Shown here: one piece after another, positions 6,841-7,023 of the stretch
Position numbering within the stretch: the first letter of the stretch is position 1
Layout of the letters: every line of letters starts with the position of its first letter
UHGV virus genome: UHGV-1662791
Strand: one strand, 5' to 3'
Source of the DNA: a virus
DNA: 21,799 nucleotides
Program-made: the position numbers and the translations under genes
Notes under the pieces: generated by a model
The model's database searches: none
What the model saw: the letters and a program-made list of their open reading frames with translations, nothing else
Told to the model about the DNA's origin: nothing

Positions 6841-7023
6841 ATGATCATGCTGATTCTCGCGCCTCTGGTGGGCGTGCTGGGTGCGCTTTTGCTGGCGTAT
6901 GGTGCCTGGCTGATTTATCCCCCGGCGGGGTTTGTTGTTGCCGGGGCGCTGTGCCTGTTCTGGTCGTGGCTGGTGGCGCGATATCTCGACCGTACACAGC
7001 CGTCTGTCGGCGGAGGTAAATAG
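6841..7023 (+). CDS. Small hypothetical membrane protein (two predicted TM helices)
   Basis: 60 aa, [26 protein letters not shown]...[27 protein letters not shown] 5 nt upstream; fills the TerL-portal gap and its stop overlaps the portal GTG start. Confidence 0.45.

What the first reader, a model, noticed from the sequence alone, without database searches (positions are those of the whole stretch)
6841..7023. Small two-TM membrane protein gene between large terminase and portal
A 60-aa ORF with two strongly hydrophobic helices and a good RBS is translationally coupled to the portal gene (TAGTG overlap). A membrane protein in the middle of a packaging operon is unexpected. It could be an accessory or exclusion-type protein, or an over-called ORF.
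Basis: seen in the sequence. Interest (0 to 1): 0.4.

Follow-up and report, generated by a model that had tools for sequence, protein, structure and literature searches.

The report
YmfR: portal-coupled small membrane hairpin
The 60-codon ORF is a real, already annotated prophage gene (ymfR) for a tiny two-helix inner-membrane protein that, across many proteobacterial phages, always sits just before the portal gene and is translated together with it, but nobody knows what it does.

Summary
ORF 6841-7023 (60 aa) has a GAGGT ribosome site. It lies 11 nt after the TerL stop, and its TAG shares one base with the portal GTG.

It is not over-called. It is 98% identical to E. coli K-12 e14 YmfR and matches PHROG 502 'membrane protein' (E 1.7e-28). 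Length is kept at about 60 aa in Enterobacterales. The hydrophobic core is under purifying selection (pN 0.16-0.27 vs pS 0.45-0.74) and invariant residues use 3-5 synonymous codons.

A profile search finds 368 clusters of 45-80 aa hairpins with the core motif [17 protein letters not shown]. In about 100 loci from gamma- and alphaproteobacterial phages, the gene directly precedes a PF04860 portal. In about 95% of them it overlaps the portal start. This holds whatever the TerL, protease or tail type. HK97 and some other phages lack the gene.

Moron criteria are not met: no promoter of its own, GC like the flanks, and conserved position. A separate lysis cassette exists in the window.

Function is untested. 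My best inference, at low confidence, is a membrane partner that places portal synthesis or ring assembly at the inner membrane. An exclusion or host-directed role remains a serious rival. The gene is already known, and interest is modest.

The parts
5096..6829 (+). Large terminase gene (TerL); its stop TAA is at 6827-6829, 11 nt before the small ORF
   Evidence: Pfam TerL_ATPase and TerL_nuclease. Mosaic joints in relatives fall at its 3' end.
6832..6836 (+). Shine-Dalgarno GAGGT of the small ORF, 4 nt before the ATG
   Evidence: Sequence. GAGG is kept in relatives.
6841..7023 (+). ymfR-family CDS (60 aa, PHROG 502), stop included
6844..6915 (+). Transmembrane helix 1 (residues 2-25), with invariant G14 and W23 and near-invariant G11 and G21
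   Evidence: AlphaFold helix 2-25; conservation
6916..6927 (+). Tight periplasmic turn Y-P-P-A (residues 26-29), the centre of the family motif [12 protein letters not shown]
   Evidence: Loop almost free of charge (K+R 0.13 per sequence) against 1.5 and 2.1 in the termini; P28 and G30 nearly invariant
6928..6978 (+). Transmembrane helix 2 (residues 30-46), with G30, G35, C38, W41 and S42
6979..7020 (+). Basic, poorly conserved cytoplasmic tail (residues 47-60); evolves neutrally except for the final GG codons
   Evidence: pN roughly equals pS in the tail
7012..7017 (+). Portal Shine-Dalgarno GGAGGT, encoded as the 'invariant' C-terminal Gly-Gly of the small protein
7023..8264 (+). Portal gene (PF04860); its GTG start shares one base with the small ORF's TAG
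   Evidence: Same junction in about 95% of 104 loci.

Best explanation
**Shown.** This is a genuine late-operon gene of the YmfR / PHROG 502 family. It encodes a 60-aa helical hairpin predicted to sit in the inner membrane with both ends in the cytoplasm and a four-residue periplasmic turn. Its stop overlaps the portal start, and the portal's ribosome-binding site lies in its last codons. A ribosome finishing the hairpin is therefore positioned to start the portal. The gene is inherited as a unit with PF04860 portals in many proteobacterial phages.

**Inferred.** The hairpin acts as a membrane partner of portal production. The strongly hydrophobic nascent chain would take the translating head-operon mRNA to the SRP/YidC insertion route, so portal subunits would be made at the membrane surface. 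The inserted hairpins probably self-associate through their glycine faces. They would then provide a platform where the portal ring, and so prohead initiation, is assembled or held. In outline this resembles the T4 gp20 portal with its gp40 chaperone. The gene improves assembly but is not indispensable for every PF04860 portal.
For: **Real gene.**
- 98% identical to K-12 YmfR.
- PHROG 502 match, E 1.7e-28.
- 167 clusters, nearly all 60 aa.
- Core pN 0.16-0.27 against pS 0.45-0.74; variable sites by codon position 28/14/42.
- Invariant residues use 3-5 synonymous codons.

**Membrane hairpin, N-in/C-in.** Supported by the AlphaFold helices and the charge distribution.

**Linkage to the portal.**
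- All 17 genome loci have the gene between TerL and the portal.
- In Serratia loci TerL is only 36% identical, but the portal is 73% and the hairpin is retained.
- Among divergent IMG/VR loci, 20 of 21 downstream genes are PF04860 and 19 of 21 start at -1 or -4.
- About 95% of 104 loci show the overlap.
- The position is the same with an S49/NfeD protease instead of S78.
- The SfV-type sister family (phrog_7105) occupies the same slot.

**Self-association hint.** Natural tandem-duplicated hairpins occur, two of three directly upstream of a portal.

**Expression.** ymfR mRNA rises with the rest of e14 on SOS induction (PMC10012262).

**Precedent.** The T4 portal initiator assembles on the inner membrane with gp40 and can be crosslinked to YidC (PMC9958956).
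Against: - No experiment bears on function.
- The conserved part is inside the membrane and at the periplasmic turn. The cytoplasmic tails that could touch a soluble portal are short and variable; some members have only 3-6 residues.
- If only mRNA targeting mattered, any hydrophobic hairpin would do. That would leave the near-invariant W23, G14, G35 and the PAG turn unexplained.
- HK97, Stenotrophomonas phage Silvanus and Paracoccus phage Shpa have PF04860 portals and no such gene.
- Physical overlap of the two genes alone could keep them together during recombination.
- One tandem variant (P0173) is not next to a recognisable portal.
- Membrane-bound prohead initiation is documented for T4 but not for HK97-like phages.
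Confidence: 0.35

Rival explanations
1. A host- or envelope-directed accessory protein. For example, late-acting superinfection exclusion that blocks DNA entry at the inner membrane (as T4 Imm or HK97 gp15 do), or binding of a conserved host membrane protein. Its attachment to the portal gene would serve only timing or dose, or be a hitch-hiking effect of the overlap.
For: The most conserved residues lie within the bilayer and at the periplasmic turn. That is where an incoming tail or tape-measure channel, or a host inner-membrane protein, would be met. Cytoplasmic tails are variable. The gene is dispensable for some PF04860 phages. Small inner-membrane exclusion proteins encoded inside structural operons have a precedent in HK97 gp15 (PMC3594210). 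PHROGs files the family under 'moron, auxiliary metabolic gene and host takeover'.
Against: Moron hallmarks are absent. There is no sigma-70-like promoter in front, GC matches the flanks, and the position is conserved across alpha- and gammaproteobacterial phages rather than sporadic. There is no match to PADLOC models or to Pfam YebO or any other family. In e14 the mRNA is induced with the prophage rather than listed as constitutively expressed.
Confidence: 0.3
2. A translational leader only. The ORF exists to deliver ribosomes to the weakly initiating portal GTG and set portal dosage, and the peptide itself has no function.
For: The stop/start overlap is universal and the portal SD lies inside the ORF. 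The C-terminal tail evolves neutrally apart from the SD codons.
Against: There is strong protein-level constraint on 46 of 60 residues, with saturated synonymous sites. A motif is conserved in 368 clusters. A leader would not need an invariant W, G and PAG turn.
Confidence: 0.1
3. A lysis-timing or membrane-permeabilising protein (holin, pinholin or antiholin-like) expressed with the head genes.
For: It is small, late, has two TM helices and glycine-rich helix faces, like class II holins. The first codons are M-I-M.
Against: The window has its own lysis cassette 4 kb upstream: a LydA-type holin at 2032-2349, a putative endolysin and Rz. There is no holin Pfam match. The second Met is not conserved: relatives start MIL or MFL, and there is no charged residue between the starts. 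The gene is never adjacent to an endolysin in the contexts read.
Confidence: 0.08
4. A virion or procapsid component bound near the portal and delivered with the DNA, as an ejection or pilot protein. This would be like the portal-adjacent genes of SPP1 (gp7) or 80alpha (gp44).
For: Gene position next to the portal, and co-translation in portal-like amounts.
Against: A 60-aa chain that is about 75% hydrophobic, with a hairpin signature, is expected to insert into the membrane co-translationally rather than stay soluble inside a capsid. No virion proteomics reporting it was found in the literature searched.
Confidence: 0.07
5. An over-called ORF; the 183 nt are a non-coding spacer or an RNA element.
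For: The SfII record marks a 'putative rho-independent terminator' inside it. A terminator-like hairpin scores at 6917-6931.
Against: Purifying selection, length conservation and profile hits argue against it. The hairpin bases are freely substituted synonymously in relatives. There is no Rfam match.
Confidence: 0.01

Closest known systems
E. coli K-12 e14 prophage protein YmfR (b1150) and its phage orthologues (ST64B Sb3, phiP27 L37, SfII_03; PHROG 502)
   Same: 98% identical and the same 60-aa length. Same position between the terminase large subunit and the portal, and the same overlap with the portal start.
   Different: Nothing of substance; this is the same gene. In e14 the flanking TerL and portal are truncated pseudogenes, whereas here they are intact.
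SfV-type 53-aa hairpin ORF (phrog_7105)
   Same: A two-TM hairpin in the same slot: ATGA overlap with the TerL stop, and the portal SD and start inside its 3' end. It is under purifying selection, and there are reciprocal weak profile hits to PHROG 502.
   Different: A different sequence family (about 33% identity over 42 columns; hhalign probability only 5%). It lacks the YPPAG turn and is unannotated in the original SfV record.
T4 gp40 / membrane-bound gp20 portal initiator
   Same: A phage-encoded helper linked to membrane-associated portal assembly. This is a functional analogy for the proposed mechanism (PMC9958956).
   Different: No sequence relation was shown, and I made no direct comparison with gp40. 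Any role of the hairpin in assembly is untested.
HK97 gp15 moron (superinfection exclusion) and T4 Imm
   Same: Small inner-membrane proteins encoded by phages; gp15 lies inside a structural operon (PMC3594210).
   Different: gp15 is a moron with its own promoter and terminator, deviant GC, sporadic distribution and YebO homology. None of these holds here.
Lambda gpW (head-tail joining), the name given to this ORF in three Pharokka-style records
   Same: Only the gene position between the large terminase and the portal.
   Different: gpW is a soluble head-completion protein. This protein is a membrane hairpin and shows no Pfam gpW match among all hits reported at E<=1. The label looks like an annotation error.

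Membership tests
YmfR / PHROG 502 small membrane protein | Significant match to the family profile | tested here: met
   phrog_502 E 1.7e-28 over residues 1-55. All 55 diverse relatives in A2 also hit phrog_502. 98% identity to K-12 YmfR.
YmfR / PHROG 502 small membrane protein | Two-helix hydrophobic hairpin of about 45-80 aa with the core [19 protein letters not shown] | tested here: met
   Alignments A1 and A2; AlphaFold helices at residues 2-25 and 29-52
YmfR / PHROG 502 small membrane protein | Located directly upstream of, and overlapping, a PF04860 portal gene (a feature derived here) | tested here: met
Moron (HK97 gp15 type, lysogen-expressed exclusion gene) | Own promoter and terminator | tested here: not met
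   No sigma-70-like site in the 500 nt before the ORF on the + strand except one at 6300-6328, far inside TerL. The 11-nt gap cannot hold a promoter. The only terminator-like hairpin lies inside the CDS and is not conserved. This was a consensus scan only.
Moron (HK97 gp15 type, lysogen-expressed exclusion gene) | Base composition different from neighbouring genes | tested here: not met
   GC 0.57-0.58 over the ORF against 0.51-0.62 in the TerL and portal flanks
Moron (HK97 gp15 type, lysogen-expressed exclusion gene) | Sporadic 'extra' gene absent from otherwise syntenic relatives | tested here: not met
   Present at the same place in all 17 genome loci, in about 100 IMG/VR loci and in Marinobacter, Vibrio and Burkholderia phages. 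Absent only in more distant modules such as HK97, Silvanus and Shpa.
Moron (HK97 gp15 type, lysogen-expressed exclusion gene) | Expressed from the repressed prophage and blocks phage DNA entry | not testable with these tools
   The only indirect datum is that ymfR mRNA rises with the rest of e14 after SOS induction (PMC10012262).
Known anti-phage defence proteins (PADLOC) | Match to a defence-system model | tested here: not met
   No hit for the window protein, the SfV-type ORF or P0159; LeoBC at E 0.04 for P0289 only
Holins (class II / pinholin) | Match to a holin family and a position in a lysis cassette next to an endolysin | tested here: not met
   No holin Pfam hit. The window's holin, endolysin and Rz lie at 2032-3270. 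The hairpin is never next to an endolysin in the contexts read.
Holins (class II / pinholin) | Conserved dual-start motif giving a holin/antiholin pair | tested here: not met
   M1-I-M3 occurs only in some E. coli-type sequences. Relatives begin MIL, MFL or MRIL, with no charged residue between the starts.
T4 gp40-like portal assembly chaperone | Required for membrane-associated assembly of the portal ring | not testable with these tools
   Only synteny and translational coupling with the portal are shown.
T4 gp40-like portal assembly chaperone | Sequence or fold similarity to gp40 | not tested
   gp40 was not retrieved. Foldseek against BFVD returned only uncharacterised hairpins.
Lambda gpW head-tail joining protein | Match to the gpW family | tested here: not met
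   The Pfam scan at E<=1 shows only weak membrane-protein noise (TctB, DUF1206, DUF2244). The PHROG match is 'membrane protein'.

The most novel reading that the evidence does not exclude
The hairpin is a dedicated, so far unrecognised morphogenetic factor of a large group of HK97-like phages. It would be an oligomeric inner-membrane platform, co-translated with the portal, on which the portal dodecamer is nucleated. Prohead initiation in these phages would then be membrane-bound, as in T4.
Probability: 0.22. Interest if true: 0.65.

Novelty: already known. Interest (0 to 1): 0.33.

Why it matters
How a single portal ring is made and placed at one vertex is only partly understood for HK97-like phages. 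A small membrane protein that has travelled with the portal gene through a large share of proteobacterial temperate phages is a cheap, testable lead. One deletion and one fractionation experiment would show whether it acts in head assembly or in exclusion.

There is also a practical point for annotation. Genes of this class are often missed, as in SfV and Burkholderia vB_PR1. They are sometimes mislabelled as 'head-tail joining protein W'. Their omission has also displaced a portal start codon.

If the protein turns out to be an ordinary accessory membrane protein, the finding is routine.

Tried and rejected
- **Pfam, NCBIfam, PADLOC, Rfam and PDB sequence searches:** no informative match.
- **Foldseek of the AlphaFold hairpin.** Against PDB it returned only a V-ATPase subunit e hairpin at E 2.1. 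Against BFVD it returned only uncharacterised small phage proteins. A 60-aa hairpin is too simple for fold search.
- **Literature.** 'ymfR' occurs only in gene lists and deletion tables. 'b1150', 'phrog_502' and phrase searches for a membrane protein between terminase and portal found nothing relevant.
- **Internal terminator idea**, from the SfII annotation and the scan hit at 6917-6931: rejected because the stem bases vary synonymously.
- **Polyproline (EF-P) stalling at YPP as the conserved feature:** rejected. The first proline is replaced by E, Q, K, H, A, R or S in about 20 of 55 members, while the second proline is kept.
- **Portal N-terminal hydrophobic motif (M-x-G-L-F) as a hairpin-specific docking peptide:** not discriminating, because HK97, which lacks the hairpin, has a similar aromatic segment.
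- **First attempt to scan IMG/VR with the 55-sequence alignment:** failed for lack of a conserved stretch. It was solved with a 14-sequence subset.
- **My automatic portal-start finder** mis-set about 14 loci ('no start', -88 or -91). These were read by eye as TGATG overlaps.

Full report
**1. The observation**

- The ATG is at 6841 and the TAG at 7021-7023, giving 60 codons.
- A GAGGT ribosome site lies at 6832-6836. TerL ends at 6829, so the gap before the ORF is 11 nt.
- The portal (PF04860) starts with GTG at 7023 and shares one base with the TAG.
- The portal's own Shine-Dalgarno, GGAGGT (7012-7017), is encoded by the last Gly-Gly codons of the small ORF.

The window is a myovirus-type prophage late region. 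In order it carries a Q antiterminator, a LydA-type holin, a putative endolysin, Rz, HNH, TerS, TerL, the small ORF, the portal, an S78 protease, an HK97-fold capsid protein, then sheath, tape measure and baseplate genes.

**2. Identity**

The ORF is ymfR.
- A 701-nt probe across it matches 1573 of 5426 complete E. coli genomes. RefSeq labels the gene 'ymfR: protein YmfR' there, including in the defective e14 prophage of K-12.
- The same gene is Sb3 in ST64B, L37 in phiP27 and SfII_03 ('putative integral membrane protein'). It is also present in SfI, SfIV and phi467.
- It matches PHROG 502 'membrane protein' at E 1.7e-28.
- It has no Pfam, NCBIfam, PADLOC, Rfam or PDB counterpart.
- Three records call it 'head-tail joining protein W'. 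Nothing supports that label.

**3. Is it a real gene?**

Yes, on several lines of evidence.
- The 5.8-billion-protein set holds 167 clusters of relatives. Nearly all are exactly 60 aa and come from many Enterobacterales.
- Off-length variants are single-contig oddities. The full-length clusters stand for thousands of contigs.
- Seventeen loci from reference genomes all carry the gene. One second copy in a Shigella flexneri genome (L012) has a C5->C4 slip in the YPP codons.
- Nei-Gojobori comparisons against the window give pN 0.16-0.27 and pS 0.45-0.74 for residues 1-46. For the tail, residues 47-60, pN roughly equals pS.
- Variable sites in the core split 28/14/42 by codon position.
- Invariant residues (G11, G14, G21, A29, G30, G35, L37, S42) are written with 3-5 different codons. 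The constraint is therefore on the protein, not on an RNA structure.
- That last point also disposes of two proposed RNA elements inside the CDS. These are the 'putative rho-independent terminator' in the SfII record and the terminator-like hairpin at 6917-6931.
- The conserved C-terminal Gly-Gly is explained by the portal SD it encodes.

**4. The protein**

- AlphaFold, using a 55-sequence alignment, gives two helices (residues 2-25 and 29-52) joined by a three-residue turn, with mean pLDDT 79.
- Across 55 diverse members, Lys+Arg average 1.5 in the N-terminal part, 0.13 in the turn and 2.1 in the C-terminal part. By the positive-inside rule both ends are cytoplasmic and the YPPAG turn faces the periplasm.
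- Conservation is concentrated in the bilayer and at the turn. G14, W23 and G35 are invariant. G21, P28 and G30 are nearly so. The consensus is G..G..L(I/V)SYGAWL(I/V)YPPAGFIV.G.
- The cytoplasmic ends are short and variable.

**5. How wide is the family, and where does it sit?**

*Breadth.*
- A profile search of 1.84 billion cluster representatives finds 368 clusters at E<=1e-3. Almost all are 45-80 aa hairpins.
- A profile search of the 90% clusters finds at least 1674. These include Marinobacter (phage AS1 gene 3), Salinicola, Plesiomonas and Providencia.
- tblastn adds Azospirillum phage Cd gene 30.

*Position relative to the portal.*
- IMG/VR holds 510 matching stretches.
- Of 22 divergent loci, 21 had a downstream ORF. 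It starts at -1 or -4 from the hairpin stop in 19 of those 21, and it is PF04860 in 20 of 21.
- The upstream gene is TerL in 13 of the 19 loci where one was found.
- Over 104 loci, about 95% show the one- or four-base overlap (with some junctions read by eye).

*The linkage is to the portal specifically.*
- Serratia loci keep the hairpin and a portal that is 73% identical, next to a TerL that is only 36% identical.
- phi467-type prophages swap TerL exactly at its stop codon.
- Marinobacter-type modules use an S49/NfeD protease instead of S78.
- In one locus (L032) an HNH endonuclease gene has been inserted between the hairpin gene and the portal.

*A sister family and unannotated copies.*
- A second sequence family (phrog_7105) fills the same slot in SfV-type head modules. 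It is a 53-aa hairpin.
- It overlaps the TerL stop (ATGA) and contains the portal SD and start. It is under purifying selection (pN about 0.1, pS 0.3-0.6).
- It is unannotated in the original SfV record but annotated by PGAP in O157:H7.
- Spot checks of proteobacterial phages with portals 27-35% identical gave mixed results. Vibrio K283, Salmonella F1055 and Burkholderia vB_PR1 have hairpins, the last one unannotated.
- Moraxella Mcat1 has a non-hydrophobic small ORF. Stenotrophomonas Silvanus, Paracoccus Shpa and HK97 have none.
- The gene is therefore widespread but not universal among PF04860 phages. That portal family also includes many Gram-positive and mycobacteriophages.

**6. What it probably does**

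*Shown.* It is a late-operon inner-membrane hairpin, co-translated with the portal and co-inherited with it.

*Not shown.* Any function.

*Moron or exclusion reading.*
- The defining features are listed in PMC3594210, and the gene does not fit them.
- No promoter-like site lies in front of the ORF. GC equals that of the flanks. The position is conserved rather than sporadic.
- In e14 its mRNA rises together with the rest of the prophage after SOS induction (PMC10012262).

*Holin reading.* This is unlikely. A complete lysis cassette lies 4 kb upstream, and the M-I-M start is not conserved.

*Leader-only reading.* This does not explain the sequence conservation.

*My preferred inference.*
- The hairpin places portal synthesis and ring assembly at the membrane. 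The nascent hairpin is a typical SRP/YidC-type substrate and would carry the translating mRNA to the membrane.
- Inserted hairpins may then form an oligomeric platform. Glycine-rich helix faces are consistent with this.
- So are natural tandem-duplicated versions, two of three of which also sit directly before a portal.
- T4 offers an outline precedent. Its portal initiator assembles on the inner membrane with the viral chaperone gp40 and can be crosslinked to YidC (PMC9958956).

*Weaknesses.*
- The conserved surface is intramembrane and periplasmic, not cytoplasmic.
- Some PF04860 phages lack the gene.
- Gene overlap alone can preserve linkage.

For these reasons a host- or envelope-directed role, including exclusion at the DNA-entry step, remains almost as likely.

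**7. Novelty and verdict**

- It is an already known, long-annotated gene of unknown function, not a new kind of element.
It is a large hairpin superfamily with no Pfam model, tied to PF04860 portals across alpha- and gammaproteobacterial phages, often unannotated or mislabelled.
- I found no paper stating this, but the literature available here is incomplete.
- Interest is modest unless the assembly role is confirmed.

Noticed in passing
L020 (SfV, U82619.2) 2289-2450 and 2392/2440: The SfV record lacks the 53-aa hairpin ORF between orf2 (TerL) and orf3 (portal). It starts the portal at GTG 2392, inside that ORF. The SD AAGGGGGA followed by GTG 2440, and the PGAP annotation of the same module in O157:H7, point to a start 48 nt further downstream.
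   Followed up: yes
L197 (Burkholderia phage vB_PR1, PV072765.1) 415-600: The 187-nt 'intergenic' gap between TerL and the portal holds an unannotated 61-aa two-TM ORF. It matches the family HMM at E 1e-10.
   Followed up: partly
L032 (IMGVR_UViG_3300048014_000058) about 4159-4899: A 246-aa ORF with an HNH-like motif (WHIDHIVP) is inserted between the hairpin gene and the portal. It is the only locus seen where the pair is split, and it looks like a homing endonuclease insertion.
   Followed up: no
P0152, P0171, P0173, P0204; loci L107, L200, L201: Natural tandem duplications of the hairpin occur, giving four TM helices in one chain. Two of three sit directly upstream of a portal. The third (P0173) lies between an unknown 320-aa protein and an S78 protease, with no recognisable portal.
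   Followed up: partly
L004, L006 and hit H18: DNA 96-99% identical to this E. coli/Shigella prophage appears in three unexpected records. These are a 'Bacillota bacterium' MAG contig, an Edwardsiella hoshinae contig and a 1764-bp 'Enterococcus phage Efm 3-10' record. Contamination or mis-binning is likely.
   Followed up: no
Hits H1, H2, H10, H19 (ON470584, ON470603, PQ793804, ON470580): In these records the hairpin gene is labelled 'head-tail joining protein W'. No sequence evidence supports the label, so it is probably a positional or pipeline error.
   Followed up: partly
L012 (Shigella flexneri SFBU0723, second copy), around locus position 4078: A one-base deletion in the C5 run of the Tyr-Pro-Pro codons shifts the frame of ymfR in an otherwise intact head module. 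It is either a true pseudogene or a homopolymer sequencing error.
   Followed up: partly
L002 (K-12 e14) 5094-6831: In e14 the 183-nt ymfR is intact, although the TerL gene before it and the portal gene after it are both truncated pseudogenes.
   Followed up: no
window 2336-2812: The 158-aa ORF between the LydA-type holin and Rz, where the endolysin is expected, has no Pfam match at E<=1e-3.
   Followed up: no
L104-L106, L111 (Marinobacter-type prophages): The same HNH-TerS-TerL-hairpin-portal-capsid order is present. The prohead protease, however, is a 310-aa S49 (ClpP/SppA-like) protein with an NfeD1b_N domain instead of the S78 protease.
   Followed up: no
window 6826-7062, minus strand: A 78-aa antisense ORF covers the whole hairpin gene. 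It is rich in R, Q and P, as expected for the reverse complement of a Leu/Gly/Ala-rich gene. I treat it as spurious.
   Followed up: partly
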